Shown here: in pieces, positions 32,741 to 52,906 of the stretch | Position numbering within the stretch: the stretch's first letter is position 1 | How the letters are laid out: each line of letters begins with the position of its first letter | The notes under the pieces: model-generated | Told to the model about the DNA's origin: nothing | What the model saw: only the letters and a program-made list of their open reading frames with translations | Databases searched by the model: none | Virus record (IMG/VR): IMGVR_UViG_3300045988_096557 | Length of the DNA: 56,927 nt | Origin: a virus | Reading direction: 5' to 3' (one strand) | Position numbers and translations under genes: made by a program

Positions 32741-33793
32741 TTAACCATTATTTGGATTTGGGTTAGTATTATCAAGCTCGCCTTGAAGTTCAGTATCAAC
32801 ATAAGAGAAGATGTTATTCGCCATCATTACACCGACACCAACCTTACGGTAAACCTGAATATCACGAGACCAGTCGTCATTATCATCGCGTTCGCGCACG
32901 TGGGTAGTACCCTCAAAAGCAACTTTTACAGGACGGCTCTCAGCTCCACCAGGAATAATCCAAGCATAACCTGGATCGATCATCTTTTTGGAGTTAGTCT
33001 CATCCTCAAGAGTTTGGGGTAGAATTACCACTCTAGTTCCCTTGTAATTTGCAAGATAACCAGTTCCCCAATACTGATCTCTCATGTTGTCAGAAATCCA
33101 AGCATCATTATCTGGAATCATTTTTACTGCAAACTCACGAGTGCAATAAATAGTTGGCTGACCATAAGCAGTAGCAGTATTTACAAGATAATCCATAGTT
33201 GGTTCGTCAAAACCAGCAACAGCACAACGGTTTGCTGCGGGAAGCTGATTGATAGAACCCATAAGAGCTTGAGCAATCTCTCTATAAATAAGCTCTTGCA
33301 TACCCTCTGTTACAATTTGAGTAAGTTCTGCAAAGTTTACTCTTCCATCAAGGAACTCCTCAAATCCGATACGAGCAGCTCCACCAATGGCGCTTGTTCC
33401 AACTTCGAAGCTCTCAGAACCAAGCTTAAAGGTCTCATACACACCAGCAAGCCCCACACGAGTAATGAATTGCTTAGCGCGAGTAAGTCCAGTTCTACGA
33501 GTAAATACAGGCTTGTCGCCTTGTGCGAAAGTTCTAATCTCAGCAAAATTGCCATAAGAATTGAGTAAACGATTAGGAACAACTTCGTCCATAGTCTGCT
33601 CAATTAAAGAGAATAGAGTATTTTTATTTTCTCTATAAAGTTCATCTGTGCCAACAAATTCATTTAGCTCATTACGCAAAGTAGTATTTAAAGCGTCATA
33701 GCTAAAAGACTCTCCTTGATAGCTATAGGTACCAGAAGGATTTGCATTAGCGACAGTTTTCATTAAACTAAGTAAATTAGCTTTATCTAACAT
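32741..33793 (-). CDS. Major capsid protein, 350 aa (no TAG).
   Basis: Intact ORF in the capsid position after the scaffold/decoration genes. Composition and length fit a major capsid protein. Confidence 0.55.
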   Translation of the reverse strand: MLDKANLLSLMKTVANANPSGTYSYQGESFSYDALNTTLRNELNEFVGTDELYRENKNTLFSLIEQTMDEVVPNRLLNSYGNFAEIRTFAQGDKPVFTRRTGLTRAKQFITRVGLAGVYETFKLGSESFEVGTSAIGGAARIGFEEFLDGRVNFAELTQIVTEGMQELIYREIAQALMGSINQLPAANRCAVAGFDEPTMDYLVNTATAYGQPTIYCTREFAVKMIPDNDAWISDNMRDQYWGTGYLANYKGTRVVILPQTLEDETNSKKMIDPGYAWIIPGGAESRPVKVAFEGTTHVRERDDNDDWSRDIQVYRKVGVGVMMANNIFSYVDTELQGELDNTNPNPNNG

Positions 33794-33812: not shown

Positions 33813-34502
33813 TTAACCTACACGCTGTACTTTTACACCAGGTTGAAGATCTGGCATAGTATACACTTTTACTACTGCAAAGATAGGATCTAAATCTCCA
33901 CCTTTAGCAGAAGTTTCAGTATCTTTAGTTAAATATCCATCAGTATCAATCTTTAGACGATCGCCTACTGCAAGCTCTCCGGCATTAGCCTTAATGGTAT
34001 TAGTAGTCCAAATATCACCAATACTAATCTTAATTACGCGAGGTACCATTTTAGTTCCTTCTGGCATCAATGCAGGATAAGTAAATGTCTCCATATTTTT
34101 CTTATATGCTACATCACTACCTTCGCGTACAGCTTCTCCGGTATAATCACTTATTGTAGCAAGTGTAGAAACTGTTTGTCCAATTGGACTATATACACGA
34201 GCATTATAATTATCCTTAATCATAGCAAAATCAGCATCAGTTTCGCGATCTCTATAAATCTTTACTTCATTAAATACCATCATCCAGGCGCCAGAAGTAG
34301 CTTCCGTACTAAAATCGCATACGCCTTTTGCATAATCATACTTTACAAATTGACCGTTCTCAAGAATCTCAATAGCGCTAGCTGCGGGAAGCTGAGCATA
34401 TACTTGACCATTTCTTGGAGCGGAAAGATGGTTTGGCTCCACTTGACCATATCCATACTGGACAAAAGTGGCATTACCTAATCTTTTAGAACTCTTAGCC
34501 AT
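33813..34502 (-). CDS. Capsid-associated protein (decoration or scaffold-like), 229 aa (no TAG).
   Basis: Intact ORF between the protease/scaffold-like gene and the major capsid protein. Confidence 0.4.
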   Translation of the reverse strand: MAKSSKRLGNATFVQYGYGQVEPNHLSAPRNGQVYAQLPAASAIEILENGQFVKYDYAKGVCDFSTEATSGAWMMVFNEVKIYRDRETDADFAMIKDNYNARVYSPIGQTVSTLATISDYTGEAVREGSDVAYKKNMETFTYPALMPEGTKMVPRVIKISIGDIWTTNTIKANAGELAVGDRLKIDTDGYLTKDTETSAKGGDLDPIFAVVKVYTMPDLQPGVKVQRVG

Positions 34503-41824: not shown

Positions 41825-41853
41825 TTGATTAATTTATTTAAAAATGTTATAAT
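41825..41853 (+). promoter_or_regulatory. Sigma-70-like promoter: TTGATT, 17 bp, TATAAT.
   Basis: TTGATT 41825-41830, spacer 41831-41847, TATAAT 41848-41853. It is divergent from the late operon promoter. Confidence 0.55.
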
Positions 41854-41890: not shown

Positions 41891-42223
41891 ATGTTCTTTG
41901 ACGAACCATATTTAGATTTACCGAAAAAAGCATAGTATTATTTTAATATCTTAATAATCAGTATTGCTATATCTCCATAGTATGCTTAGGAAATCTTCCA
42001 AAATAAAGCAATAAGTTTATGGGATATTTAGGGAGTTAATGATCCTAGACCTATTGCTATTCATATATATACTTCTTACCATATTAATAAAGATTTTGAC
42101 TATGAAGTATAGTGTATTCCTCACTAGGTATTAGAAGTTAATGAAAATGAAATATCTTTCTATGAAATGATTGATTACGATACTAGTGACCCTTGGAGGC
42201 TTAATCCAGATGCAATAGATTAA
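41891..42223 (+). CDS. Hypothetical protein, 110 aa, with 6 in-frame TAGs.
   Basis: Ribosome-binding site AGGAGA plus ATG. There are 110 codons with no TAA or TGA in AT-rich DNA. It overlaps the FolD start. Confidence 0.45.
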
Positions 42224-42995
42224 TATAAAAGAATATTTTCAACAATAGGTAAACAAATTGCGGGAGATTAGTGGTAATGTTCCATCACTCATGATTATCG
42301 ACGCAACAGCCTAGGATCCCGCAAATCAAATTTATATTCGTAATAAAATAAAAGACTTTAATGCTCTTGGTTGGGAAGCAGAAGTGTTTAGAGCGAATAG
42401 TTCAGTAGAGTTAAGATTACTCTTAGGCCATGCGAAAGACTGGGATGCGGTAATAGTTCAAATGCCAGTAGCAAATGGAATTGATTTCAATTATAGTCAA
42501 ATACCTATCTCTAAAGATGCGGATGGTTTAAATCCTATGAGCAATATTACTCCAGCAACAGTAAGAGGAATTATAGACTATTTGGATGAATGTGGTTTTA
42601 ACTACGAAGGTAAATCTGCTGTTATTTTGGGAAGAAGCGATATTGTAGGAAAGCCAATGGCTAAAGCTCTACTGGATAGAAATATGACCGTATCAGTATG
42701 TCATAGCAAAACAGATATAAATACAAAACTCTATTTAACAAGGCAAGCAGATTTAATTGTCTCTGCGGTAGGAAAATTTAGCTTAACAAGAGAAGCCTGT
42801 CCTAACGCTATTGTTATAGATGTTGGTATTCGCAGAAATGAAGCAGGAATTATTCTTGGAGACTTTGTAGAAATTGATGAAATTGCAAAAAGAAATAATG
42901 TATGGTCAACTCCTGTCCCCGGAGGAGTAGGTCTATTAACAAGATTGGGGTTGATGAAAAATTGTTTATAGTTAGCGAAACAGGCGCAAAGATAA
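42210..42995 (+). CDS. folD: Bifunctional methylenetetrahydrofolate dehydrogenase/cyclohydrolase FolD, about 261 aa, with 4 in-frame TAGs.
   Basis: Motifs recalled from canonical FolD (not checked by computation): PANQIYIRNK (catalytic Lys region), GRSDIVGKPMAKALL, AIVIDVGIRR, TPVPGGVGLLT. The listed ORF 42384..42971 continues upstream across TAGs and downstream across TAG 42969 to TAA 42993. Ribosome-binding site GGAGG. Confidence 0.7.
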
Positions 42996-43348
42996 TGAAA
43001 TTTTCGGGAGATTTTGACAAATATGCTGAAGAAGTTCTTCATATTAACAATCCCTTTCGAAAATTTTATCATACACAAAGTCCTTCAGTATTTAAAACTA
43101 ACACCGATGGTATCATAACAATAGATATGGAAGAATCTCGAAAAATATATGAAGAAACAAAAGTAAATAGAGAAGAATGGATTAAATTAAGAGATAGATA
43201 TGTCGCAGAAAGAATACTGCGGGAACTTGGATATGAAGTTCTATTAACCTCGTCTTATTTTGAATACTATCCTGATGCTATTCCTTGTGAAGGAGCGTCA
43301 GGGCAATGCACAATAGACTGTAGAATGAATGGGTGTAAATATGAGTAA
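42995..43348 (+). CDS. Hypothetical Cys-rich protein, 117 aa.
   Basis: An ATG at 42995 overlaps the FolD stop (TAATG) and is in frame with the listed ORF 42902..43348. Confidence 0.5.
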   Translation: MKFSGDFDKYAEEVLHINNPFRKFYHTQSPSVFKTNTDGIITIDMEESRKIYEETKVNREEWIKLRDRYVAERILRELGYEVLLTSSYFEYYPDAIPCEGASGQCTIDCRMNGCKYE

Positions 43349-43349
43349 A

Positions 43350-43511
43350 ATGTGTCCTTGCATTGATTATTGTTATAATAGATTCGGTCGGTAGTACACA
43401 CCAGACTGCGACAATACTTGCGATTATGCAATTAAAGTTAAAGAAAATAAAATGCTTAAAGAATATTTAAAGAGATTAGCGGCGGAAACAAATAGTTTAC
43501 ACACTTTATTT
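43350..43511 (+). CDS. Small Cys-rich protein, 53 aa, with 1 TAG.
   Basis: The ATG lies 2 nt after the previous stop. It contains the Cys-rich segment CPCIDYCY and ends at TGA. Confidence 0.3.
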
Positions 43512-43572
43512 GAAGATTGGGATAATTAAATTATCCACTTCTGCCCAACCGCACGGAAGAAAGGAAACTGCA

Positions 43573-44340
43573 ATGAAACGAGAAGAGCTCAAACAACACG
43601 CGCAATCGCATTACGCAGACATTAAAGTGAGACTCAGGGAAGATACAGATCGCGCAATTATAAACTCTGAAATTTTTGGCCCCAATCTTCCTTTTCCGCA
43701 AAAACCGCGAGAAACCCACCATAATACCTTTTATCTTAAAGACCAAGATAGTGTATCCTGCCTATTCGGTTTAACCGATCGGAGCAAGACTGCGATCTTA
43801 AATTATGCAAGCTATAAACATCCAGGTGGTTATTTCCTTGGAGGTAGCTCTGCACAAGAAGAGGCATTGTGTCACGAAAGCAACCTTTATCCTATTCTTC
43901 TTGCTTTTGATGATACTTATTACGCATGGAATAGACAGAGACTGAATCGAGCCCTATATCTTGATAGAGCTATCTATACTCCTGATGTAGTCTTTGAAAA
44001 AGACGATAGTAGAAAATTAGCTGATGTAATTACTTGTGCTTCTCCTAATTATAGAACAGCACATACTTATCAGCAAGTTCCTCTTTCTCTAAACAATAGG
44101 ATAATGGAAGAGAGAATTAATTTTATGTATCGAATTGCCGAGGTTAAGGGAGTGGAAAATTTAATCGCGGGAGCCTGGGGCTGTGGTGTTTTTATGCAAG
44201 ATCCATCAACGGTCGCCACCTTGCTCGTAAACGCAGCCCGCAATTATAATATTCCAAATATCTATTTTGCGATTCCAAACCGCAATTCCCGCAATTTTAG
44301 AATTTTCTTGGAGGTTTTGGAAAAATGTTCAAGCAATTAA
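43573..44340 (+). CDS. Macro domain protein of the bacterial PARG-like / DUF2263 type, 255 aa.
   Basis: Signature HPGGYFLGGSSAQEE (the GGG-x6-8-QEE PARG motif) and a LIAGAWGCGVF block. Ribosome-binding site AGAAAGGAA, with an ATG at 43573 in frame with the listed ORF. Confidence 0.65.
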   Translation: MKREELKQHAQSHYADIKVRLREDTDRAIINSEIFGPNLPFPQKPRETHHNTFYLKDQDSVSCLFGLTDRSKTAILNYASYKHPGGYFLGGSSAQEEALCHESNLYPILLAFDDTYYAWNRQRLNRALYLDRAIYTPDVVFEKDDSRKLADVITCASPNYRTAHTYQQVPLSLNNRIMEERINFMYRIAEVKGVENLIAGAWGCGVFMQDPSTVATLLVNAARNYNIPNIYFAIPNRNSRNFRIFLEVLEKCSSN

Positions 44341-44762
44341 TTATTGCGAGGCGAGACTTAAATATGTCTCCAGGGAAACTTGCCGCACAAGTTTCCCATG
44401 CTTCTATTGCTTTTCTTTTGGAAAAGTTATATTGGGGAAGTAAAGAAGTTGTTAAAGAAAGAGACGGTCTTATGTATCATATAGGAATAAGCCTCGATAG
44501 AGACTTATTCCATAATTGGATAGCGGAAGCGGAGACCAAAGTAGTTTGTAGAGCGAAGAATAAGAATGATTTGTTAAAGGCTGTTAAGATAGCAGAAGAA
44601 TTAGGATGGGAAGAGAATAAGGATTATTGGCTTATCTATGATGCTTGTAGAACAGAGTTAGAACGCGAAGGCCCGGAAGGGACTTTGACGTGTATTGGAT
44701 TTAGGCCAATGGAGGCGGAAGAAATTGACAAAATTGGGAAGAAGTATCAGCTTTATAATTAA
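44325..44762 (+). CDS. pth2: Peptidyl-tRNA hydrolase, PTH2 family, 145 aa.
   Basis: Motifs RRDLNMSPGKLAAQVSHASIAF and a C-terminal CIGFRP...IDKIGKKYQLY match the PTH2/Bit1 signature. It overlaps the macro domain gene by 16 nt. Confidence 0.7.
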   Translation: MFKQLIIARRDLNMSPGKLAAQVSHASIAFLLEKLYWGSKEVVKERDGLMYHIGISLDRDLFHNWIAEAETKVVCRAKNKNDLLKAVKIAEELGWEENKDYWLIYDACRTELEREGPEGTLTCIGFRPMEAEEIDKIGKKYQLYN

Positions 44763-44967
44763 TATAGTTTTGATTTTACTATTGTTGACTGCTTGCGTGG
44801 AGGAGAACAATCGCTATCCAAGGCTAGAGTATATTCCTACAATGTGGAGATCTGATGCGATTAATATTAAACTAGAGGATGGATATATCTTAAAAGGATA
44901 TGAAACGATAGAAACTGAGGATGGATATAATTTGATTTTTAGTTTTGAGGCAACCGACGATGGATAA
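44695..44967 (+). CDS. Putative lipoprotein (lipobox LLTAC). The start is uncertain and it overlaps the pth2 3' end.
   Basis: A hydrophobic signal peptide followed by Cys. Confidence 0.35.
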   Translation: MDLGQWRRKKLTKLGRSISFIINIVLILLLLTACVEENNRYPRLEYIPTMWRSDAINIKLEDGYILKGYETIETEDGYNLIFSFEATDDG

Positions 44968-45103
44968 AGTATTAGTATGGTTTGACGGCAAGCATTATTA
45001 TAATATATGCGCAGTCTGTGGAGAATTATATCCAATTTACAAAGTAGAAGATCATATTATATATAATTTAAAAAAGAAGTGTAAATGCGGAGAGAAGAAG
45101 TGA
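44957..45103 (+). CDS. Small zinc-ribbon protein (CxxC...CxC), 48 aa.
   Basis: ATGGATAAAG overlaps the previous stop. It has two Cys pairs and ends at TGA 45101-45103. Confidence 0.3.
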   Translation, partial: TMDKVLVWFDGKHYYNICAVCGELYPIYKVEDHIIYNLKKKCKCGEKK

Positions 45104-45125
45104 GTTCTTCTCTCTTTTCGTTATT
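45091..45125 (+). terminator. Rho-independent terminator candidate.
   Basis: AGAGAAGAA...TTCTTCTCT stem followed by a T-rich tract. Confidence 0.4.
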
Positions 45126-45389
45126 GAGATTGAAAAGTCGATTTAGATTTTGAAATGGCGTGGCAGAACGATTTTACAAAAAAATTTCCAGTTTTTCCCA
45201 AAATACACGCCCCTCTTTCACATGGTAAAGTATTGAAGTGTAGTTGGCCTCTTTCACTCGTTAAAGTACGAAAGCAAGAAAGCACGCCCCCCTAAAGGAA
45301 TACGCGCGCGTAAAGGATTTGTGCAAACTGCACAACAAGATGTTATTTATTTTGTGCAAAAGAGAGAGAAAGAAATTTCAAAAAAACTA

Positions 45390-45418
45390 TTGACAAGTGA
45401 GCATTTTGGTGGTAAACT
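45390..45418 (+). promoter_or_regulatory. Sigma-70-like promoter with an upstream A-tract (TTGACA-17-TGGTAAACT).
   Basis: TTGACA 45390-45395, spacer 45396-45412, TAAACT 45413-45418 preceded by TGG. The upstream tract AAATTTCAAAAAA is UP-element-like. Confidence 0.5.
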
Positions 45419-45486
45419 GGACTTGTCCAGTAGGACAGAGACAAAAGCACGGCACTTTGAAAATTAAAAAAATTTCAAAAAAGGTA

Positions 45487-45515
45487 TTGACAAACTGCTA
45501 AAGGTTTGATACAAT
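45487..45515 (+). promoter_or_regulatory. Consensus sigma-70 promoter with an upstream A-tract (TTGACA-17-TACAAT).
   Basis: TTGACA 45487-45492, spacer 45493-45509, TACAAT 45510-45515. The A-tract element matches that of the previous promoter. Confidence 0.55.
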
Positions 45516-45568
45516 ACAGACAGAACAAAAGAGAACCACACCACAAAAAGAAAGGGAGTCAAAAGAGT

Positions 45569-45943
45569 ATGAAAAAGATTGATTTTACCAATGAAGATCG
45601 AGCCATTATTATGGAGTATATGGCCGCTAAGATGGCTAAGTCTGCGGCGGAGGCGGCGGAGAAAGCAGCTAAGGCTAAGGCTAAAGAGCTATTCTCCAGA
45701 TTAGGTAAGGCTTTTAAGGCTACGGACAAAACAAGTTATCTATATGGCACGGTACAAATGCAGGGTAAGGCGAAAGCGGTGGTATATAAAGAAACTACCG
45801 CAAAAGGAACGGTTGACTGGAAAGCCTATGCTATGGCATTAGGCGGGACAGAGGCCGAAGCAGAGCAATTCCGCAGACCTTCCGATGTTCGTACCTCTTT
45901 TGATTGGGCGACAAAGACCCAAGAAGAAGAAATTAGAGGATAA
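45569..45943 (+). CDS. Hypothetical early protein, 124 aa (possibly Gp157-like).
   Basis: Ribosome-binding site AAAGGGAG, with an ATG at 45569 in frame with the listed ORF 45506..45943. Confidence 0.5.
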   Translation: MKKIDFTNEDRAIIMEYMAAKMAKSAAEAAEKAAKAKAKELFSRLGKAFKATDKTSYLYGTVQMQGKAKAVVYKETTAKGTVDWKAYAMALGGTEAEAEQFRRPSDVRTSFDWATKTQEEEIRG

Positions 45944-45954
45944 CAGTTTATAAA

Positions 45955-45995
45955 CCCTGCCTTGCAAAACACAAGGCAAGGCAGGGTTATAATAA
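45955..45995 (+). terminator. Rho-independent terminator.
   Basis: CCCTGCCTTGC...GCAAGGCAGGG, an 11-bp stem, followed by TTATAATAATT. Confidence 0.5.
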
Positions 45996-46017
45996 TTAAA
46001 AGAAAGGGGCATACTAT

Positions 46018-46164
46018 ATGTATCAGTTACAAGTTTTAGCCAATGAGAAAATGCGCTATTATGAACCATCCACCCTTTCAATGGCAAGATGGAAGGTCAG
46101 TCACGAGATAGTCAATCCTAATCATTGGATTGTGGATTTATCCAGTGGAGAAATCGTAGATTAA
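46018..46164 (+). CDS. Small hypothetical protein, 48 aa.
   Basis: Ribosome-binding site AAAGAAAGGGG plus ATG, ending at TAA 46162-46164. Confidence 0.35.
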   Translation: MYQLQVLANEKMRYYEPSTLSMARWKVSHEIVNPNHWIVDLSSGEIVD

Positions 46165-46210
46165 AAAGAAGCTGACCTAACGGCTATACGGGGAGAAAGG
46201 ATAAAAGACT

Positions 46211-46513
46211 ATGAACAATTATATTAAGTGGTTCGTTGGGCCTACTTTTAGAAAGCGTGAATTTATTAAACTTTTGCGGTATAAGATGAATGTGCGTTCC
46301 GCAGAGGTAGAGGACGGCATCATCTTAGACCTGGATGCTTTTAATGCCATGCGAGTGGCCTATATGCCACACTGGGCTTATATCAATAGAAAGTTTATCA
46401 ATAGCAATCTGCATACCAGAATTGCAAGCGAAGACGAATATAAGGTTGCTATGGTCGGAGATACAATCGGTACTGAATGGGTTAAAGAACAGGAGGCAAA
46501 GAAATGGAAATGA
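46211..46513 (+). CDS. Hypothetical protein, 100 aa.
   Basis: Listed ORF with a ribosome-binding site GGAGAAAGG. Confidence 0.55.
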   Translation: MNNYIKWFVGPTFRKREFIKLLRYKMNVRSAEVEDGIILDLDAFNAMRVAYMPHWAYINRKFINSNLHTRIASEDEYKVAMVGDTIGTEWVKEQEAKKWK

Positions 46514-46656
46514 GAATTATTAAGCGGATAGGAGGCGGCATTTGTGCCGCTCTCCTACTCTGGGCAGTTCTTAGTTGGGCTGATATAGTGGCGGATAACT
46601 GTGAGCCAAACCCACAGCACAGCGAATATAATATGTTCGTTCTCATGACTAAATAA
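46504..46656 (+). CDS. Small membrane peptide, 50 aa.
   Basis: Overlapping ATG with a hydrophobic core GGGICAALLLWAVLSW. Confidence 0.35.
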   Translation: MEMRIIKRIGGGICAALLLWAVLSWADIVADNCEPNPQHSEYNMFVLMTK

Positions 46657-46669
46657 TAGGAGGAAAAAA

Positions 46670-46903
46670 ATGTATAGAGGGACTTATATCGACGCCATGG
46701 GCCGCAAGCGCAGAGAGATGGGATATTTCAGTCTTAATAAGCCCACTCTGAATAAACTCCATATACCAGTAATTGTCCAAGCGAGAGATAAGACAAGTGC
46801 GGCGAATAAAATCAATAGGAAATATAAGTTGCGTATAAGTCCCAGCAATCTACGGGAGGTGCCGATGGGCACAGGCTATCTCATGGAAACCATGGAGCTG
46901 TAA
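46670..46903 (+). CDS. Hypothetical protein, 77 aa.
   Basis: Listed ORF with a ribosome-binding site AGGAGG. Confidence 0.55.
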   Translation: MYRGTYIDAMGRKRREMGYFSLNKPTLNKLHIPVIVQARDKTSAANKINRKYKLRISPSNLREVPMGTGYLMETMEL

Positions 46904-46914
46904 AGGAATAAAAA

Positions 46915-46953
46915 TGACTGGCAATCTGCACAAAGATTGCCAGTCATTTTTAT
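46915..46953 (+). terminator. Rho-independent terminator.
   Basis: TGACTGGCAATC...GATTGCCAGTCA stem followed by TTTTTAT. Confidence 0.6.
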
Positions 46954-46975
46954 GCACTTTTCCATATTGACTTTT

Positions 46976-47116
46976 CGCCGGGCCGCCAGCGTGCGCCGCG
47001 GCCCAAATTTTTATTTATCCGGCAGTTTCAACAATTATATGATCGAAAGTCTGTGCAATTCGACAAAAGATTTTCTCCCGAAATTACTTGACATTCCTCT
47101 TGTCATGTGTTATTAT
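46976..47116 (+). repeat. Early-region intergenic cassette, copy 1: GC-rich hairpin, AAATTTTT, TTTCAACAATT / TGTGCAATT half-sites, and promoter TTGACA-17-TATTAT (47088-47116).
   Basis: Motifs read directly from the sequence. The same architecture recurs at 6 further sites. Confidence 0.6.
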
Positions 47117-47170
47117 ATACTTGTCCAGAGGGACAAGGTCACAAAAAGAATTTGAAAGGAAGTAAAAGAA

Positions 47171-47410
47171 ATGACTTTGAAAATGATTGCAGGTCTGCTT
47201 TCTCCGCTCGCAGAAGATACCATGTTCTTTGACGGGGAAGGGGTCGAAATTATCAATGAGAATACTCAAGCTCATTACCATGAGCTACCTGATCACAAGA
47301 TAACCCTGGGAGGAGACGTCATTGAGGCGTCTAAGGAATGGGTGCTGGGACTTCCGGTAACTGGCATTAAAGCAAGAGGCAACAATCTAATCATTTATGT
47401 AGATGGTTAA
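47171..47410 (+). CDS. Hypothetical protein, 79 aa.
   Basis: Listed ORF with a ribosome-binding site GAAAGGAAG. Confidence 0.55.
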   Translation: MTLKMIAGLLSPLAEDTMFFDGEGVEIINENTQAHYHELPDHKITLGGDVIEASKEWVLGLPVTGIKARGNNLIIYVDG

Positions 47411-47473
47411 GAAAACCTGCGGGAGTGGAGGTTTATGGCCTCCACTCCCCACGATAAAAAAGGAGAAATAAAT

Positions 47474-47689
47474 ATGATTGCTGTTATTAAATTTGAAAGT
47501 GCAGAAAAGTCTGTGGAGTTTGGAAACACAATTTGTAATATGGCTGGTTGGTGTTTGAGTCATCCTCTCAATTCCAATGTTACCGGCTGTGTTCGTACGC
47601 TTGATTTTAATGCCGGCGACAAGCAAGATAGAGCCTTATATAATTATCTGCTAAAAATTGGAGCTTTCGAGGAGGTGGAATTAAAGTGA
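47474..47689 (+). CDS. Hypothetical protein, 71 aa.
   Basis: Ribosome-binding site AAAGGAGAAA, with an ATG at 47474 in frame with the listed ORF 47435..47689. Confidence 0.5.
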   Translation: MIAVIKFESAEKSVEFGNTICNMAGWCLSHPLNSNVTGCVRTLDFNAGDKQDRALYNYLLKIGAFEEVELK

Positions 47690-48095
47690 GTATTGAGCGT
47701 TTACCGCACACATATCCCATTGGCTCCACTGTTTGGACAAATAAGGGATATGGCACAGTTCTACTTCACATTGGTAAATACCATCTGGTTTGGTTACAGA
47801 GATTAGGGTTGGCGTAATGCCGGCCCTATTGATTTTTTCAAAAAAATATATTATAATAATTATAGAAAAATAAAGAAAGGAGTTTTTCTAATGACCTTAG
47901 AAGTGCTGAAAGCATTCGTGGTTATTTTGGAGTTCTGTTTGAACTAGGATTCTTGTAAAAATTGTCCTATGTCTCAGTTCTGCCAGAAAATGCCTTGCGA
48001 GTGGTAAATGTTCCTTCCGATTGTTCTAAATCGGCGATTCCCGTGATGGAGTCGTTTTTCGCACGAGCCTAGGTCACTAGAATTTATTTATCAAA

Positions 48096-48329
48096 ATGCA
48101 AGAAACTACTTTCTCTCGCAAATTAGATTCAAGTGGTAGAATTATGATTCCGATTCGCTTGCGTGAACAAATGGGACTTACTTCCGGTTAGGAATACTAT
48201 TTTACTACTATGGTAAAAGATGGTAGAAAATATATCTGTATTGACTGCGGATCGGTTGATTCCTCGCTTGAAGAAGCTATGAAAATTATCCAAGCAAACG
48301 GATTAAAGATTGTTGAAAATGCCGATTGA
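48096..48329 (+). CDS. Small AbrB/SpoVT-N swapped-hairpin domain protein, 77 aa, with 1 in-frame TAG (48189).
   Basis: SRKLDSSGRIMIPIRLREQMGL matches the AbrB N-domain and is paralogous to the N-terminus of the protein encoded at 49554..50015. Confidence 0.45.
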
Positions 48330-48371
48330 CTTCTCAAAAGAAAGGGAGTTGTTGGTATGCAGAAATTAATG

Positions 48372-48403
48372 ACCTCCTGAAATTCAGGAGGTTCTTTTTT
48401 TTT
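48372..48403 (+). terminator. Rho-independent terminator.
   Basis: CCTCCTG...CAGGAGG stem followed by a T9 run. A 7-codon mini-ORF (ATG 48357) ends inside the stem. Confidence 0.6.
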
Positions 48404-48410
48404 ATTCGTT

Positions 48411-48551
48411 CGCCCGGCCGTGCACCACAGGCGCGGCCGGAATTTTTTATCAAGAGGCAATTTGCACAATTTTAGGCTCGAATTGTTGTGCAATCTGACG
48501 AAAGATTTTTTCCTAAAATCGCTTGACTTTCTGCTTTGCCTATGGTATATT
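48411..48551 (+). repeat. Early-region cassette, copy 2: GC-rich hairpin, GAATTTTTT, TTGCACAATTTT...TTGTGCAAT dyad, and promoter TTGACT-17-TATATT (48523-48551).
   Basis: Motifs read directly from the sequence. Confidence 0.6.
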
Positions 48552-48604
48552 ATTATCAGAAAGAGGGAGACAGAAACACCTCGAAAGAAAGGAAAGAAAA
48601 AATC

Positions 48605-48862
48605 ATGGAAGAAAAGAAAATGATTTTGGTCACGGACGGATACGACGATAAACCTATCTGCGTAGCGTCTAATACCATCGCCGCCCGCAAGTCTGCGTTG
48701 GATTATCTGGAAAATCAATATGACGATGGAGAATGGGAGGCTATTCTGGAAGAAGATGGATATAAAAATCGTGATGACCTTTTCCATGATATGATGTTAG
48801 GCATGGAAAGCGAATGGGAGCGTTTCAATATTAACTTTGCGGAAGTTTCCTTTGCGGGGTGA
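48605..48862 (+). CDS. Hypothetical acidic protein, 85 aa.
   Basis: Ribosome-binding site AAAGGAAAG, with an ATG at 48605 in frame with the listed ORF. Confidence 0.5.
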   Translation: MEEKKMILVTDGYDDKPICVASNTIAARKSALDYLENQYDDGEWEAILEEDGYKNRDDLFHDMMLGMESEWERFNINFAEVSFAG

Positions 48863-48866
48863 GTAT

Positions 48867-49019
48867 ATGACAACTTTTACCATGATAATTCTGATTGCTT
48901 TTGTTCTGTGTCTGGTATGGCAATTTGTAGCCGCTATTGAAAAAGATTGCATAGGACTTGAAATCATGTTTGCGGCGGAAATCTTAATGTTCGCATATCT
49001 TGCAAAAACTTTGATGTAA
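48867..49019 (+). CDS. Small membrane protein, 50 aa.
   Basis: ATG 48867 with a hydrophobic core. Confidence 0.4.
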   Translation: MTTFTMIILIAFVLCLVWQFVAAIEKDCIGLEIMFAAEILMFAYLAKTLM

Positions 49020-49024
49020 GGGGT

Positions 49025-49053
49025 TGACAAATCGCCCCAACTATGGTACAATA
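49025..49053 (+). promoter_or_regulatory. Consensus sigma-70 promoter: TTGACA-17-TACAAT.
   Basis: GGGGTTGACAAATCGCCCCAACTATGGTACAAT. Confidence 0.55.
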
Positions 49054-49114
49054 AGACCATGGAAGGGACGACCCCGATAAATAAAAATTAAAATTAAGAA
49101 AGGAAGTTTTGGAA

Positions 49115-49501
49115 ATGCGTGTTAGTAAGGTTGTTCGGGAGTATATTGAAAAGGAAGTTGGAGTAAAGGCTGAAATCAAGAGGCAGGCTGTCCATGAAAC
49201 CTTTTCCGCTTATGAGACAGAGTGTAAAATCATGCAGGAGAAAGTTAAGCAGGCGGTAAAAGCCCTTAACGACGAACTTCTTTCGGAGGTTAAAAACAAG
49301 GGGATGAGTTTCCGCAGATATAATGACCGGCTGGTAGAGGCTTGCCAGGATTGTATTTACCCCGCTATGGAGAACGAGAAGAAAAAGGCCATGCGGGAAG
49401 TTAGCGACTGGGAGAAAAATGCCGTAACGGAAATTATTCTTACGCTTGAGTTGGGTGGTACTAAAGCTGACCTCGAACGGATGTTGAAAGAACTGGATTA
49501 A
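49115..49501 (+). CDS. Hypothetical protein, 128 aa.
   Basis: Ribosome-binding site AGAAAGGAAG plus ATG 49115, in frame with the listed ORF 49109..49501. Confidence 0.55.
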   Translation: MRVSKVVREYIEKEVGVKAEIKRQAVHETFSAYETECKIMQEKVKQAVKALNDELLSEVKNKGMSFRRYNDRLVEACQDCIYPAMENEKKKAMREVSDWEKNAVTEIILTLELGGTKADLERMLKELD

Positions 49502-49513
49502 GAAGGGAGGAAG

Positions 49514-49544
49514 GGAGTGCAAGACTATAAATCTTGCACTCCCG
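49514..49544 (+). other. Perfect 12-bp stem-loop (GGGAGTGCAAGA...TCTTGCACTCCC) in a 5' UTR, with no T-tract.
   Basis: An inverted repeat seen directly. A related hairpin beginning GGGAGTGGAGG lies at 47417-47447. Confidence 0.4.
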
Positions 49545-49553
49545 CAGATAAAA

Positions 49554-50015
49554 ATGAAAGCTACTGGAATTGTGCGCCGTATTGATGATTTGGGCCGGAT
49601 AGTAATTCCAAAGGAAATCCGTAGAAACCTTCATATTAGAGAAGGCGACCCATTAGAGATTTTTCTTGAAGAAGATGGCGGCGTAGTTTTTAAGAAATAT
49701 TCTATAATGGGAGAATTTTCCTCTTACGCTAAACAAATGCAAAATGCCCTTTCATCTAACGGAATCGCCGCGGCTATTTTTGACAATGATGGAATTTTAT
49801 GCGGGCCGCGTTCCTTTGGAATTACAAGAGTTCCCGATGACTGGATTGATATTCGCAGTTCGGCGACAAAATGGGAAAGTATGTTTATTACACCAATTCT
49901 TGTGAATGGCGACCAGGTTGGTTTTATTTGCTATAAAAATAGCAATAACGAAGAATCTGTCCATGACATGGTTAAACTTTCTGCAAGATTTCTTGCAAAT
50001 ATATGTGAAAGTTAA
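49554..50015 (+). CDS. SpoVT/AbrB-family transcriptional regulator (AbrB N-domain plus a GAF-like C-domain), 153 aa.
   Basis: The N-terminus GIVRRIDDLGRIVIPKEIRRNLHIREGDPLEIF is a near-canonical SpoVT/AbrB swapped-hairpin domain. The overall length and a C-terminal domain of about 100 aa resemble SpoVT. Confidence 0.6.
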   Translation: MKATGIVRRIDDLGRIVIPKEIRRNLHIREGDPLEIFLEEDGGVVFKKYSIMGEFSSYAKQMQNALSSNGIAAAIFDNDGILCGPRSFGITRVPDDWIDIRSSATKWESMFITPILVNGDQVGFICYKNSNNEESVHDMVKLSARFLANICES

Positions 50016-50040
50016 AAGAGGGCTTCGGCCCTCTTTTTTA
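50016..50040 (+). terminator. Rho-independent terminator (AGAGGGCTTCGGCCCTCT followed by TTTTTT).
   Basis: A GC stem with a T-run. The same stem sequence recurs at 50909 and 52303. Confidence 0.65.
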
Positions 50041-50064
50041 TCCCATTTTTTGAATAGGCTTCTC

Positions 50065-50182
50065 GGCGGCGCGCTAACGTGCGTGGCGCGCCGAATTTTC
50101 TCTTTTGTAGAAGTTGCACAATTTTCCAGCCGAAATTTTGTGCAGTTTGCCTCTTGTTTTCTATCCCGAAATCTGATATACT
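50065..50182 (+). repeat. Early-region cassette, copy 3: GC-rich hairpin, GAATTTT, TTGCACAATTTT...AAATTTTGTGCAG dyad, and promoter TTGTTT-17-TATACT (50154-50182).
   Basis: Motifs read directly from the sequence. Confidence 0.55.
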
Positions 50183-50214
50183 TTAATCAACCTAAAGAAA
50201 GGAAGTAAATCAAA

Positions 50215-50679
50215 ATGAAAAAGATGCTCTGCTTTGATATGGATGGAACAATCGCTGACCTGTACGGCGTGGATGATTGGTTAAAAGATTTAATGAATGA
50301 AAATCCCTATCCATATACAGTCGCCAAACCTCTTTGCGATATAGAAGAATTGAATACCGTTCTTAATAAACTCATTGAGCAGGGCTGGGAAATTCGGGTT
50401 ATCAGTTGGCTTGCAAAAGACAGTTCTAACTCATATAAAACTGCTGTTCGTGACGCAAAGCGCATTTGGCTTGCAAAATACAACTTCCCCGCACATAAAG
50501 TCCACCTTGTGGAATATGGCACAACAAAAGCAAATTGTGTGCGGAAACACTTTGAGCCGGGAATTAGCAATTTCATTTTGATTGATGATAATAAAAGTGT
50601 GCGGGATGGCTGGCATTTAGGGGAAACAATCGAGCCACATGAAGATTTACCTACGGCCTTATGGCGACTGGTAGAGTAA
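50215..50679 (+). CDS. HAD-superfamily 5'(3')-deoxyribonucleotidase-like hydrolase, 154 aa.
   Basis: N-terminal HAD motif I CFDMDGTIADL, and an LIDD motif near the C-terminus. Confidence 0.55.
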   Translation: MKKMLCFDMDGTIADLYGVDDWLKDLMNENPYPYTVAKPLCDIEELNTVLNKLIEQGWEIRVISWLAKDSSNSYKTAVRDAKRIWLAKYNFPAHKVHLVEYGTTKANCVRKHFEPGISNFILIDDNKSVRDGWHLGETIEPHEDLPTALWRLVE

Positions 50680-50719
50680 TCCACCAGTCAATCTTAAAAT
50701 AAGAAAGGAAGTTTTGTAA

Positions 50720-50908
50720 ATGAAGATTAGAAAGGTTAATAGGCTTATCCTCAGCGAGGAAGAGCGACAAGTATTGAAAAATGCGTCCATTCTCATTGGT
50801 CAAATTGATCAGGTTATGGCCGACAATGAAATTGATGACGATATTTCGCTTGAAGATTTGAGCTATTGGCTTGACGAGATTATCAATAAAGAATATCTTG
50901 GATATTAA
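50720..50908 (+). CDS. Hypothetical acidic protein, 62 aa.
   Basis: Listed ORF with a ribosome-binding site AGAAAGGAAG. Confidence 0.5.
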   Translation: MKIRKVNRLILSEEERQVLKNASILIGQIDQVMADNEIDDDISLEDLSYWLDEIINKEYLGY

Positions 50909-50932
50909 GAGGGCTTCGGCCCTCTTATTTTT
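50909..50932 (+). terminator. Rho-independent terminator (AGAGGGCTTCGGCCCTCT followed by TATTTTT).
   Basis: A GC stem with a T-run. Confidence 0.6.
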
Positions 50933-50952
50933 ACTCTTTAATATCGTTTGGG

Positions 50953-51069
50953 CGGCTCGCTGGCGCACGCGGCGAGCCGAGTTTTTGTTTTTGTCGATGT
51001 TGCACAATTTTGGCTTGCAAATTTTGTGCAATTTGCCATCTTGTAATTATCCCGAAAGTATGGTATTAT
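50953..51069 (+). repeat. Early-region cassette, copy 4: GC-rich hairpin, AGTTTTT, TTGCACAATTTT...AAATTTTGTGCAA dyad, and promoter TTGTAA-17-TATTAT (51041-51069).
   Basis: Motifs read directly from the sequence. The downstream leader of about 160 nt has only a tiny RBS-led ORF. Confidence 0.55.
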
Positions 51070-51232
51070 ATATTTGTCAAGAGGGGAAGGCCAAGAAATC
51101 AAGAGGTCGCGAACTCTTAGAAAGTAAAGGAAGTAAATTTATATTGTGTCGTAAGTCGAGTGAACGCCGTTAGAATAGGCCGTTCTAATGCCCAGTAGCT
51201 TGCAGTAAATCGCAATAAAAATTTCCTTTTCC

Positions 51233-51261
51233 TCTTGACATCAAGCATGATATGTGCTATA
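51233..51261 (+). promoter_or_regulatory. Consensus sigma-70 promoter: TTGACA-17-TATAAT.
   Basis: CTCTTGACATCAAGCATGATATGTGCTATAAT. Confidence 0.55.
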
Positions 51262-51295
51262 ATAAACTCAACAAGAGGAAAGGAAGTCAAAGATT

Positions 51296-52087: not shown

Positions 52088-52115
52088 AGCCCCGCCCGGT
52101 AGAAAGGACAGAGAT

Positions 52116-52298
52116 ATGAGAACTGAAAAAATTTGGTTCGACTTTATGAACGCCGATTGCCAATATCAGGCAAGAAAGGTCATTGAGCGAATGGGATGGA
52201 CTATTGATGAAAATCTCGATGGCGATGGCGGCTATCCTGTTCATTTCCCCGAAGAGGATTTAGGACTGTTTGAATTTCTTGATATATGCTGGTCATAA
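52116..52298 (+). CDS. Hypothetical acidic protein, 60 aa.
   Basis: Ribosome-binding site GAAAGGACAGAG plus ATG 52116, in frame with the listed ORF 52077..52298. Confidence 0.45.
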   Translation: MRTEKIWFDFMNADCQYQARKVIERMGWTIDENLDGDGGYPVHFPEEDLGLFEFLDICWS

Positions 52299-52302
52299 AG
52301 GA

Positions 52303-52328
52303 AGGGCTTCGGCCCTTCTTTTTTATAC
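52303..52328 (+). terminator. Rho-independent terminator (GAAGGGCTTCGGCCCTTC followed by TTTTTT).
   Basis: A GC stem with a T-run. Confidence 0.6.
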
Positions 52329-52341
52329 CTCGAAAAGTCAG

Positions 52342-52501: not shown

Positions 52502-52571
52502 ACTATCAGAAAGTGAGAGAGACGAACGGCAGACAGCGACAGCGAACTTTCAGAAATCTTTCAAAAACCCC

Positions 52572-52860: not shown

Positions 52861-52906
52861 AAATACATCAAGGGTGACGACCTACCGTCAGAAAGGAAGT
52901 ATCATT

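What the first reader, a model, noticed from the sequence alone, without database searches (positions are those of the whole stretch)
42210..42995. Phage-encoded FolD (folate one-carbon enzyme) written in the recoded code
A near full-length FolD homologue of about 261 aa has conserved catalytic-region motifs (NQIYIRNK, GRSDIVGKPMAKALL, AIVIDVGI, TPVPGGVGLLT). It is interrupted by four TAG codons, including one three codons before the canonical C-terminus. At that position the alignment LMKNCL-TAG-LAKQAQR versus FolD ...LLKNTVE-AAKR places TAG at an E/Q-like position, which supports Gln.

FolD supplies 5,10-methylene-THF and 10-formyl-THF for thymidylate and purine synthesis, so it is a nucleotide-metabolism auxiliary gene. 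Phage FolD is uncommon compared with Frd/Td.

Because it contains TAGs it cannot come from a recent standard-code host transfer without amelioration. Alternatively, it was acquired from another recoded genome.
Basis: partly seen in the sequence, partly recalled or inferred. Interest (0 to 1): 0.5.

Follow-up and report, generated by a model that had tools for sequence, protein, structure and literature searches.

The report
Phage FolD gene with TAG-encoded glutamines
This is an intact, selectively maintained folate one-carbon enzyme gene (FolD) in a gut phage that reads the TAG stop codon as glutamine; the reading is correct, but both phage FolD and this recoding are already known, so it is a tidy example and not a new kind of thing.

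Summary
Window 42210-42995 (+) is a 261-codon frame with four in-frame TAGs (codons 3, 13, 35, 254) ending in TAA. It matches both Pfam FolD domains and phage family phrog_7320, keeps the catalytic Tyr/Lys/Gln/Asp and NADP-site residues, models confidently as FolD (pLDDT 94; TM 0.83), and evolves under purifying selection (dN/dS 0.15-0.30).

TAG means Gln here. Across 9 orthologous gene sets, TAG aligns to CAA/CAG in 52% of pairs (18.6-fold enrichment). In one 83%-identical relative, the invariant catalytic Gln of the VQxP motif is itself written TAG.

The phage is an SPbeta-like, roughly 143 kb gut phage related to Phage Phass-1 (code 15). FolD sits at the same place, at the head of the block diverging from the packaging/head operon, in all ten related loci compared. 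The more distant orthologues have no TAG, so the TAGs arose in place by CAA/GAG->TAG changes after an old acquisition, not by transfer from another recoded genome.

Cultured standard-code relatives (Enterococcus phages EF1/VRE9) carry an annotated FolD beside thymidylate synthase and DHFR. Verdict: new member of a known kind; modest interest.

The parts
42210..42995 (+). FolD-family CDS (261 codons plus TAA), read with TAG = Gln
   Evidence: Pfam PF00763 and PF02882 both match, phrog_7320 E = 8e-50, PDB 3p2o E = 1.7e-36, AF2 pLDDT 94.
42216..42218 (+). In-frame TAG, codon 3
   Evidence: Aligned to CAA (Gln) in L005 and L006 and to TAG in L003. The N-terminus M-x-Q/q-I-N-I-K is conserved, which fixes the start codon.
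42246..42248 (+). In-frame TAG, codon 13
   Evidence: Aligned to GAG (Glu) in L003-L006, a single G->T change. The column is E in 89 of 110 family members.
42312..42314 (+). In-frame TAG, codon 35
   Evidence: Shared with L003, L012, L013 and L016. L004/L005 have GGG/GGC and L006 has AAT.
42969..42971 (+). In-frame TAG, codon 254
   Evidence: Shared with L003, L012, L013 and L016. Others have GAG, GAT or GAC, and E. coli FolD has Gln at the aligned position.
42333..42347 (+). YxxxK catalytic motif (Y42...K46; E. coli Y50/K54)
   Evidence: Invariant in 69-70 aligned lineage proteins.
42459..42461 (+). Catalytic Gln84 (CAA) of the VQMP motif (E. coli Q98)
   Evidence: Invariant in the family. 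The same codon is TAG in relative L012.
42516..42524 (+). D103-A-D105 of the DxDG motif (E. coli D119/D121)
   Evidence: D105 is invariant and D103 is at least 90% conserved. It is followed by a 12-residue deletion relative to canonical FolD.
42630..42656 (+). G141-R-S-D-I-V-G-K-P149 dinucleotide-binding motif; with H165-S166 (42702-42707) it forms the predicted NADP 2'-phosphate site
   Evidence: The specificity is inferred from what is known of human MTHFD1 R173/S197.
41891..42223 (+). ORF110, upstream cistron, 6 TAGs, overlaps the FolD start by 14 nt; function unknown
   Evidence: It is called as a gene in L001, L003 and L005. No Pfam or PHROG hit.
42995..43348 (+). ORF117, downstream cistron, TAATG overlap with the FolD stop; no TAG; function unknown
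   Evidence: No family hit.
43573..44340 (+). Microbial-type PARG gene, TAG-free
   Evidence: PF10021 E = 3.5e-26. It is linked to FolD in L001, L003 and L004.
44325..44762 (+). PTH2 peptidyl-tRNA hydrolase gene, TAG-free
   Evidence: PF01981 E = 1.4e-22 and phrog_1866. It is linked to FolD in L001, L003, L005 and L006. A phrog_1866 gene lies between DHFR and FolD in Enterococcus phage VRE9_4.
41825..41853 (+). Promoter-like site (TTGATT-17-TATAAT with TG) upstream of ORF110
   Evidence: This is a consensus match only.
45089..45115 (+). Terminator-like hairpin (11-bp stem plus T-run) after PTH2; possible end of the ORF110-FolD-...-PTH2 unit
   Evidence: This is a consensus match only.

Best explanation
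The gene encodes a functional, divergent FolD: a bifunctional 5,10-methylene-THF dehydrogenase / 5,10-methenyl-THF cyclohydrolase, probably NADP-dependent. It belongs to a gut phage of about 143 kb that is SPbeta-like and related to Phass-1, and that decodes UAG as glutamine.

FolD is a long-resident, vertically inherited gene of this phage lineage, always placed at the head of the rightward block that diverges from the packaging/head operon. In the window's sub-clade, ordinary point mutation (CAA->TAG, GAG->TAG) has written 3-5 of its codons as TAG, at the same rate as in the structural genes.

TAGs sit at codons 3 and 13, so the protein can only be made when UAG suppression is active in the infected cell. 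Once made, it interconverts methylene-, methenyl- and 10-formyl-THF to keep one-carbon units available for phage nucleotide synthesis. The main use is most likely dTMP synthesis through a thymidylate synthase/DHFR cycle, with purine synthesis and Met-tRNA formylation as other possible sinks.

Shown here: gene integrity, family and fold, catalytic residues, purifying selection, TAG = Gln, synteny, and in-place origin of the TAGs. Inferred: enzymatic activity, cofactor, metabolic sink and timing of expression. The confidence of 0.85 applies to 'functional phage FolD, TAG = Gln, TAGs arose in place'. The specific dTMP-supply role alone would rate about 0.5.
For: Identity:
- Both Pfam FolD domains score above their cut-offs, and phrog_7320 matches at E = 8e-50.
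- phmmer to PDB FolD 3p2o gives E = 1.7e-36 over residues 6-258.
- The AF2 model has pLDDT 94 and pTM 0.91. The top 50 Foldseek hits are all FolD/MTHFD, TM about 0.83.
- Y42, K46, Q84, D105, G141/S143, H165/S166 and PGGVG are invariant across 69-110 lineage proteins.

Functionality:
- dN/dS is 0.15-0.30. It is 0.18 against L003, where dS = 0.85 is not saturated.
- Three of the four TAGs are retained over that distance.

TAG = Gln:
- Of 488 TAG-to-residue pairs in 9 orthologue sets, 52% are Q (18.6-fold enrichment). lnL is -936 for Q against -1687 for E.
- L012 writes the invariant catalytic Gln84 as TAG.
- At codon 258 the window has CAG where L003 has TAG. At codon 3 the window has TAG where L005 and L006 have CAA.
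- All window genes stop at TAA or TGA.
- The relative Phass-1 has three tRNA-Sup(CTA) genes predicted to carry Gln (PMC10607447). Code 15 has been validated by proteomics in crAss-like phages (PMC9523058).

Phage context:
- YonB/YonD_N/YonG_N structural neighbours.
- The capsid-position protein is 52% identical to Phass-1 and 36% to the Enterococcus EF1 group.
- The same FolD position is seen in L001, L003-L006 and L012-L016, from independent samples, on contigs of 98-152 kb.

In-place TAG origin:
- L004-L006 FolD are TAG-free although their structural genes are recoded.
- FolD's TAG share of Gln codons is 0.31 against 0.40 in the structural genes (p = 0.77). Its GC3 is 0.24 against 0.22 in the late block.

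Role:
- In the related Enterococcus phage VRE9_4, FolD lies in a cluster with ribonucleotide reductase, thymidylate synthase and DHFR.
Against: - All NCBIfam FolD equivalog models score far below their trusted cut-offs (best 162 bits against 445). The N-terminal catalytic domain only just passes Pfam (37.3 against 32.8) and is not detected at all in many lineage members. The enzyme is therefore divergent, at 30-36% identity to every other FolD compared.
- A 12-residue deletion removes the conserved HPxNxGxL loop after DxDG. Its effect on activity is unknown.
- No thymidylate synthase, DHFR, GlyA, PurN or Fmt gene was seen in the 57-kb window or in the roughly 10-kb right flank, so the metabolic partner is not shown.
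- No suppressor tRNA was found in the window or in any fetched flank.
- The immediate neighbours (PARG, PTH2; SIR2 in L006) look like host-takeover or translation genes and not nucleotide metabolism.
- There are no expression or activity data.
Confidence: 0.85

Rival explanations
1. FolD's main job here is not dTMP supply. It belongs to a host-takeover or translation module with PTH2 and PARG. For example, it could provide 10-formyl-THF for initiator-tRNA formylation (or purines) while PTH2 recycles peptidyl-tRNAs released during UAG read-through. Alternatively, it could be a diverged enzyme that retains only one of the two activities.
For: - FolD-PTH2 linkage is conserved in L001, L003, L005 and L006. 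A phrog_1866 (PTH2-like) gene also sits between DHFR and FolD in Enterococcus phage VRE9_4.
- No thymidylate synthase or DHFR is in the window.
- The N-terminal domain is divergent and a loop is deleted.
Against: - All residues needed for both activities are invariant.
- In the only related cultured phages, FolD is in a thymidylate synthase/DHFR/RNR cluster.
- About 60% of the genome was not visible, so absence of Td/DHFR is not established.
Confidence: 0.2
2. The TAGs are a translational timer. ORF110 and FolD (TAG-rich) share a transcript with the TAG-free PARG and PTH2. The same mRNA would then give PARG and PTH2 immediately, and FolD only after the phage's suppressor tRNA accumulates.
For: - TAGs at FolD codons 3 and 13 and six in ORF110, against none in ORF117, PARG and PTH2.
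- One promoter-like site upstream and one strong terminator-like site after PTH2.
- TAG appears to be a genuine stop in one gene of the TAG-poor block.
- The published model holds that recoding gates late genes, as summarised in PMC10607447.
Against: - Orthologues in L004-L006 have no TAG, and gene order differs (PARG lies upstream of FolD in L004), so no conserved gating requirement exists.
- FolD's TAG share equals that of the structural genes, as expected from neutral drift within a recoded compartment.
- The promoter and terminator are consensus matches only.
Confidence: 0.15
3. The gene is a decaying pseudogene, or a bacterial fragment mis-assembled into a phage contig, and the TAGs are real stops.
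For: - There are four in-frame stops under the standard code.
- The protein scores below the NCBIfam FolD cut-offs.
Against: - No TAA, TGA or frameshift in 261 codons, and dN/dS 0.15-0.30.
- TAG positions are conserved across dS 0.85, and there is a TAG at the invariant catalytic Gln in L012.
- Identical synteny in ten independent assemblies, and composition identical to the phage late genes.
- The nearest bacterial-type FolDs are only about 35% identical.
Confidence: 0.02

Closest known systems
FolD of Enterococcus phages EF1, EF5, H1 and VRE9_1-4 (phrog_7320, 'tetrahydrofolate dehydrogenase and cyclohydrolase')
   Same: This is a phage-encoded FolD in large (134-142 kb) Bacillota phages with an SPbeta-like morphogenesis module. 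The capsid-position protein is 36% identical. It belongs to the same PHROG, and a PTH2-like phrog_1866 gene lies nearby.
   Different: These phages use the standard code and are cultured. Their FolD is only 33-34% identical to the window's, no closer than bacterial FolD. It keeps the canonical loop after DxDG. It lies in an RNR/thymidylate synthase/DHFR cluster about 45 kb from the capsid gene, not beside the packaging operon.
FolD of Lak megaphages (Prevotella; TAG-recoded)
   Same: This is a FolD homologue in a gut phage that also reassigns TAG.
   Different: It is 35-36% identical to the window's FolD and bacterial-like (47% to E. coli FolD). It has the full-length loop and no in-frame TAG in the gene. 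The phage lineage and host phylum are unrelated.
Bacterial FolD (e.g. Campylobacter jejuni 3P2O, E. coli 1B0A/5O22) and human MTHFD1 DC domain
   Same: It shares the two-domain fold (TM about 0.83), the YxxxK Lys, the catalytic Gln and Asp, the GxSxxVGxP Rossmann motif and the PGGVG motif.
   Different: The window's protein is 30-36% identical. It has a 12-residue deletion after DxDG, PATV instead of PCTP, PGGVGLLT instead of PGGVGPMT, and a shorter N-terminus. It scores below the NCBIfam equivalog cut-offs. Four of its codons are TAG.
Phage Phass-1 / proposed Phassvirus group (Babkin et al. 2023, PMC10607447; NCBI 'Caudoviricetes code 15 clade')
   Same: This is the closest complete deposited genome. 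The capsid-position protein is 52% identical. It is a human-gut phage of about 136 kb with TAG->Gln recoding of structural genes, a giant tape-measure gene, and a predicted Clostridia host.
   Different: Phass-1 has no FolD homologue at E <= 1e-5 (local tblastn on its first 45 kb). There is no megablast-level DNA similarity.
T4-type phage folate/thymidylate genes (frd DHFR, td thymidylate synthase)
   Same: These are phage-encoded folate-cycle enzymes that support dTMP synthesis (established knowledge).
   Different: They catalyse a different step, since FolD interconverts one-carbon-THF forms. They are far commoner in phages. In PHROGs, thymidylate synthase is phrog_160 and DHFR is phrog_316, against phrog_7320 for FolD, and to my knowledge PHROG numbers run roughly by family size.

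Membership tests
FolD / THF_DHG_CYH (bifunctional methylene-THF dehydrogenase / methenyl-THF cyclohydrolase) | Both Pfam domains (PF00763 catalytic, PF02882 NAD(P)-binding) score above their gathering thresholds | tested here: met
   PF02882 scores 131 bits against 27. PF00763 scores 37.3 against 32.8, a narrow pass.
FolD / THF_DHG_CYH (bifunctional methylene-THF dehydrogenase / methenyl-THF cyclohydrolase) | Catalytic residues: the YxxxK lysine (E. coli K54 / human K56), Gln (Q98/Q100) and Asp (D121/D125) | tested here: met
   Y42, K46, Q84 and D105 are present and invariant in 69-110 lineage sequences.
FolD / THF_DHG_CYH (bifunctional methylene-THF dehydrogenase / methenyl-THF cyclohydrolase) | Two-domain FolD fold | tested here: met
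   The AF2 model was built on P0001, which differs from the window by 1 residue, and has pLDDT 94 and pTM 0.91. The top 50 Foldseek PDB hits are all FolD/MTHFD, with TM 0.78-0.86.
FolD / THF_DHG_CYH (bifunctional methylene-THF dehydrogenase / methenyl-THF cyclohydrolase) | Dinucleotide-binding GxSxxVGxP motif and the Arg/Ser that bind the NADP 2'-phosphate | tested here: met
   G141-R142-S143...G147-K-P149 and C-H165-S166-K-T are present. NADP specificity is inferred from knowledge of human R173/S197 and was not measured.
FolD / THF_DHG_CYH (bifunctional methylene-THF dehydrogenase / methenyl-THF cyclohydrolase) | Conserved loop after DxDG (G-F-H-P-x-N-x-G-x-L), typical of canonical FolD | tested here: not met
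   There is a 12-residue deletion, shared by the whole lineage and by Vibrio phage D479 FolD only. It is a conserved feature and not a catalytic one. I keep the family assignment but flag the protein as a structural variant.
FolD / THF_DHG_CYH (bifunctional methylene-THF dehydrogenase / methenyl-THF cyclohydrolase) | Measured dehydrogenase and cyclohydrolase activity, or complementation of a folD mutant | not testable with these tools
   This requires an experiment.
NCBIfam FolD equivalogs (automatic naming as FolD) | Score at or above the model's trusted cut-off | tested here: not met
   The best hit, NF010776, scores 162.5 bits against a cut-off of 445. All 30 models fall below their cut-offs. 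The protein is therefore not an 'equivalog' of any curated bacterial or archaeal FolD clade, and functional equivalence is inferred from residues and fold.
phrog_7320 (phage tetrahydrofolate dehydrogenase and cyclohydrolase) | Significant full-length match to the PHROG profile | tested here: met
   E = 8.3e-50, 170.5 bits, residues 5-258 on profile positions 14-281 of 285.
Code-15 (TAG->Gln) recoded phages | In-frame TAGs in conserved genes, with TAA/TGA as the only stops of those genes | tested here: met
   TAG makes up 49% of Gln codons in the late block.
Code-15 (TAG->Gln) recoded phages | TAG positions align with Gln in homologues | tested here: met
   52% of aligned pairs are Q, an 18.6-fold enrichment, with Q ahead of E by 750 lnL units. 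There is a TAG at the invariant catalytic Gln in L012.
Code-15 (TAG->Gln) recoded phages | Phage-encoded suppressor tRNA(CUA) | tested here: inconclusive
The relative Phass-1 has three (PMC10607447).
SPbeta-like / Phass-like large siphophages of Bacillota | SPbeta-type morphogenesis genes (YonG, YonD, YonB order) and a genome of about 135-150 kb | tested here: met
   PF27269, PF27290 and PF27364 hits occur in conserved order. Contigs are 141-152 kb. tblastn matches Phass-1, the EF1 group and SPbeta-like phages.
Nucleotide-metabolism auxiliary gene acting with phage thymidylate synthase/DHFR | Partner folate-dependent enzymes encoded in the same genome | not tested
   None is in the window or the right flank. 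The rest of the genome could not be fetched. Partners do co-occur with FolD in Enterococcus phage VRE9_4.

The most novel reading that the evidence does not exclude
The TAG codons at the very start of FolD (codons 3 and 13) and throughout the overlapping upstream ORF110 act as a translational gate inside one operon. The downstream cistrons of that operon (PARG, PTH2) are TAG-free. The genome would then run two coding regimes at once: TAG as a genuine stop in at least one early gene (53844-54164), and TAG as Gln in late genes and FolD. FolD has been moved from the 'standard-code' regime (as in relatives L004-L006) into the 'recoded' regime in this sub-clade. That would show a metabolic gene being re-timed simply by synonymous-like CAA->TAG drift.
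Probability: 0.12. Interest if true: 0.55.

Novelty: new member of a known kind. Interest (0 to 1): 0.3.

Why it matters
The result gives a clean, well-controlled example that code-15 recoding in gut phages extends beyond structural and lysis genes into a metabolic gene. It also provides an unusually direct sequence proof of TAG = Gln, because a universally invariant catalytic glutamine is written as TAG in a close relative.

It shows that FolD is a stable, lineage-wide gene of a common but barely described group of roughly 145-kb Clostridia-associated gut phages. Standard-code annotation would shred the gene into fragments.

In practical terms it argues for code-aware annotation of auxiliary metabolic genes in viromes. 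It does not reveal a new mechanism.

Tried and rejected
- Megablast of window 30-50 kb against 50,697 phage records found no match, so there is no close deposited genome.
- I looked for FolD at the syntenic place in Phass-1 and in Enterococcus phage EF1. It is absent there. EF1-group FolD is elsewhere in the genome.
- I searched for a THF/ZTP riboswitch or any Rfam family near the gene and in the whole window and found none.
- ARAGORN found no suppressor tRNA in the window or in seven related loci.
All left-end genes contain TAG, so that flank stayed out of reach. The right flank (L008, L009) held no folate genes or tRNAs.
- The genome-contig scan looked for a prophage or host. It returned only two phage-sized contigs of about 148 kb binned into Eubacterium and Oscillospiraceae MAGs. 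That is a weak host hint and not evidence of integration.
I used P0001, which differs by one residue.
- I tested whether the reverse transcriptase at 1067-2284 belongs to a DGR. No template/variable repeat pair was found.
- I considered a common origin of the lineage FolD with the Enterococcus-phage, Lak or Vibrio-phage FolDs. Identities are uniformly 30-36%, so no affinity can be claimed.
Full report
**1.
- Window 42210-42995 (+) starts with ATG and ends with TAA. It contains 261 sense codons, four of them TAG: 42216, 42246, 42312 and 42969, which are codons 3, 13, 35 and 254.
- There is no TAA or TGA and no frameshift. Given the window's TAA+TGA frequency, my arithmetic gives about 3.5e-6 for such a frame arising by chance.
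- The only slip is that the last TAG is 8 codons before the stop, not three.
- Recoding is a property of the whole window. Reading TAG as sense turns the minus strand from 3.4 to 41.8 kb into a continuous gene array, including a 2851-codon gene with 100 TAGs. Every gene called ends in TAA or TGA.

**2. It is a FolD.**
- With TAG read as Gln, the protein passes both Pfam FolD domains. PF02882 scores 131 bits. PF00763 scores 37.3 bits, just above its cut-off.
- It matches the phage family phrog_7320, 'tetrahydrofolate dehydrogenase and cyclohydrolase', at E = 8e-50.
- It aligns over residues 6-258 with Campylobacter jejuni FolD 3P2O at E = 1.7e-36.
- An AlphaFold2 model built from 69 lineage sequences has pLDDT 94 and pTM 0.91. 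Its 50 best PDB matches are all FolD/MTHFD structures, with TM about 0.83.
- The catalytic YxxxK (Y42, K46), Gln84 and Asp105 are invariant in 69-110 lineage proteins. So are the GRSxIVGKP and CHS cofactor motifs and PGGVG.
- It is nonetheless a divergent FolD.
  - Every NCBIfam FolD equivalog scores far below its cut-off.
  - Identity to any other FolD compared is 30-36%. That covers E. coli, Lak megaphage, Enterococcus phage and Vibrio phage proteins.
  - The whole lineage lacks 12 residues of the conserved loop after DxDG.

**3. It is functional, not a pseudogene.**
- Nei-Gojobori dN/dS against four orthologues is 0.15-0.30. It is 0.18 against L003, where dS = 0.85 is not saturated. Three of the four TAGs are conserved over that distance.

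**4. TAG means glutamine.**
- I aligned nine orthologous gene sets (eight structural genes plus FolD) from the window and four related loci, with TAG masked as X.
- Of 488 TAG-to-residue pairs, 52% were Gln (171 CAA, 82 CAG). That is an 18.6-fold enrichment. Gln's substitution profile explains the data 750 log-likelihood units better than the next amino acid.
- Within FolD itself:
  - Codon 3 is CAA in L005 and L006.
  - Window CAG258 is TAG in L003.
  - Relative L012 (83% identical) writes the invariant catalytic Gln of the VQMP motif as TAG: GTT TAG ATG CCT against the window's GTT CAA ATG CCA.
- No tRNA gene is present in the window or in seven related 20-kb loci.
- The related Phage Phass-1 carries three tRNA-Sup(CTA) genes (PMC10607447).

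**5. What genome this is.**
- The structural genes carry the Pfam families YonG_N, YonD_N and YonB in SPbeta order.
- The YonB-position protein is 52% identical to Phage Phass-1 (136 kb, human gut, code 15), 36% to the cultured Enterococcus phages EF1, H1 and VRE9, and about 26% to SPbeta-like staphylococcal phages.
- Contigs carrying close FolD relatives are 141-152 kb.
- Two of them are binned in Eubacterium and Oscillospiraceae MAGs. They are phage-sized contigs, so this is only a hint at a Clostridia host.
- The large database holds over a hundred 90%-identity clusters of this FolD at 48% identity or more. Several clusters have 200-700 member sequences, so the lineage is common.

**6. History of the gene.**
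- In all ten related loci compared, FolD sits at the head of the rightward block that diverges from the packaging/head operon. It is usually followed by a PTH2 peptidyl-tRNA hydrolase and often a microbial-type PARG.
- FolD in the more distant relatives L004-L006 (56-64% identical) contains no TAG, although their structural genes are recoded.
- The sub-clade at 75% identity or more to the window has 3-5 TAGs.
- Opposite the window's TAGs, the relatives have CAA, GAG, GGG/GGC, AAT and GAT/GAC.
- In the window, FolD's TAG share of Gln codons (0.31) and its GC3 (0.24) match the late genes (0.40-0.49 and 0.22). The downstream TAG-poor block has 0.09 and 0.40.
- In L006, FolD is significantly TAG-depleted relative to its own structural genes (p = 0.012).
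- The simplest reading is an old acquisition, vertical inheritance, and in-place conversion of Gln and Gln-like codons to TAG. It is neither a recent host transfer nor a transfer from another recoded genome.
- Phass-1 itself lacks FolD.

**7. How it probably works.**
- Shown: an intact FolD whose translation requires UAG suppression from codon 3 onwards.
- Inferred: it is the second cistron of a compact unit.
  - ORF110 overlaps FolD by 14 nt.
  - FolD overlaps ORF117 through a TAATG.
  - ORF66, PARG and PTH2 follow.
  - A promoter-like site lies at 41825-41853 and a strong terminator-like hairpin at 45089-45115.
- The enzyme would interconvert methylene-, methenyl- and 10-formyl-THF.
- The best guide to its sink is the related Enterococcus phage VRE9_4. 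There FolD lies with ribonucleotide reductase, thymidylate synthase, DHFR and a PTH2-like gene. That points to support of dTMP synthesis.
- No partner enzyme is visible in the 57-kb window or the right flank. The rest of the genome could not be reached. Purine or formyl-Met-tRNA supply therefore remains a live alternative.

**8. Comparison with what is known, and novelty.**
- Phage-encoded FolD is rare, with tblastn hits in 53 of 50,697 phage records, many of them short fragments.
- It is already catalogued as phrog_7320. It is annotated in cultured phages: the EF1/VRE9 group, Vibrio phage D479 and Fusobacterium phage FNU1 ORF148 (PMC6591296). It is also present in the TAG-recoded Lak megaphages, where the gene is bacterial-like and TAG-free.
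- TAG->Gln recoding is established (PMC9523058, PMC11210395). The Phass-like group has been described (PMC10607447).
- What is new is modest:
  - a distinct, loop-deleted FolD clade fixed in a common gut phage lineage;
  - recoding reaching into a metabolic gene;
  - a TAG-encoded catalytic glutamine as internal proof of the code.
- I rate it a new member of a known kind, with interest 0.3.

**9. Side observation bearing on the code.**
- The ORF at 53844-54164, in the TAG-poor and GC-richer rightward block, ends at a TAG. That TAG lies in the loop of a perfect terminator hairpin (CCCGCTGG-CATAG-TCCAGCGGG-T7).
- TAG is therefore probably a true stop there, which suggests two coding regimes in one genome.
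- This is consistent with the published idea that recoding separates early from late expression. It is the basis of the more speculative 'translational gate' reading, which I give a probability of 0.12.

Noticed in passing
window 53844-54180 (+): A T5orf172-like ORF ends at a TAG that sits in the loop of a perfect intrinsic-terminator hairpin (CCCGCTGG-CATAG-TCCAGCGGG followed by T7). TAG is therefore probably a genuine stop in this TAG-poor block, while it encodes Gln in FolD and the late genes. All other ORFs of that block end in TAA or TGA.
   Followed up: partly
window 46977-47037, 50065-50125, 50951-51011, 54205-54265 (+): There are four copies of a 61-nt intergenic element: a GC-rich hairpin, a T-run and a conserved TTGCACAATTT. 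It looks like a repeated terminator/promoter cassette punctuating the rightward (early-looking) block.
   Followed up: no
window 1067-2284 (+): A reverse transcriptase gene (Pfam RVT_1 E = 4.6e-17; phrog_1423 E = 2.8e-84) contains 3 TAGs. No DGR-type template/variable repeat pair was found anywhere in the window.
   Followed up: partly
window 25494-26033, 27601-28992, 32143-32676, 32741-33793, 33813-34502 (-): Five structural genes, including the YonB-position (capsid-like) gene, contain no TAG at all, while neighbouring late genes have 2-4% TAG codons. The most abundant virion proteins seem to avoid the recoded codon.
   Followed up: no
window 43573-44762 (+); L006 12269-12856: A microbial-type PARG and a PTH2 peptidyl-tRNA hydrolase, both TAG-free, follow FolD. 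The FolD-PTH2 linkage recurs in relatives, and a PTH2-like phrog_1866 gene lies between DHFR and FolD in Enterococcus phage VRE9_4. L006 adds a SIR2 gene. A peptidyl-tRNA hydrolase in a stop-codon-recoding phage may deserve a look.
   Followed up: partly
window 16662-25217 (-): A 2851-codon gene with 100 in-frame TAGs (3.5% of codons) is presumably the tape-measure protein, as in Phass-1, where it is 3149 aa (PMC10607447).
   Followed up: no
L006 4082-7665: In relative L006 the 581-aa gene at the YonF (terminase-large) position is split into pieces, with DUF723 and HNH/NUMOD4 endonuclease genes inserted. This looks like a homing-endonuclease/intron-type insertion. The window itself has an HNH/NUMOD4 endonuclease at 54350-54964 with 2 TAGs.
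   Followed up: no
window 42000-54000: There is a steep composition gradient. GC3 rises from 0.24 (FolD) through 0.32-0.35 (PARG, PTH2) to 0.40-0.74 (52907-53308), and window GC reaches 0.52 at 53-54 kb against about 0.32 in the late block. The TAG-free block is compositionally distinct from the recoded part.
   Followed up: no
L019 (Vibrio phage D479, OZ195776.1 171239-171973): The FolD of this unrelated jumbo vibriophage has the same 12-residue deletion after DxDG as the lineage studied here, although overall identity is only about 32%. This is possibly convergent trimming of that loop in phage FolDs.
   Followed up: no
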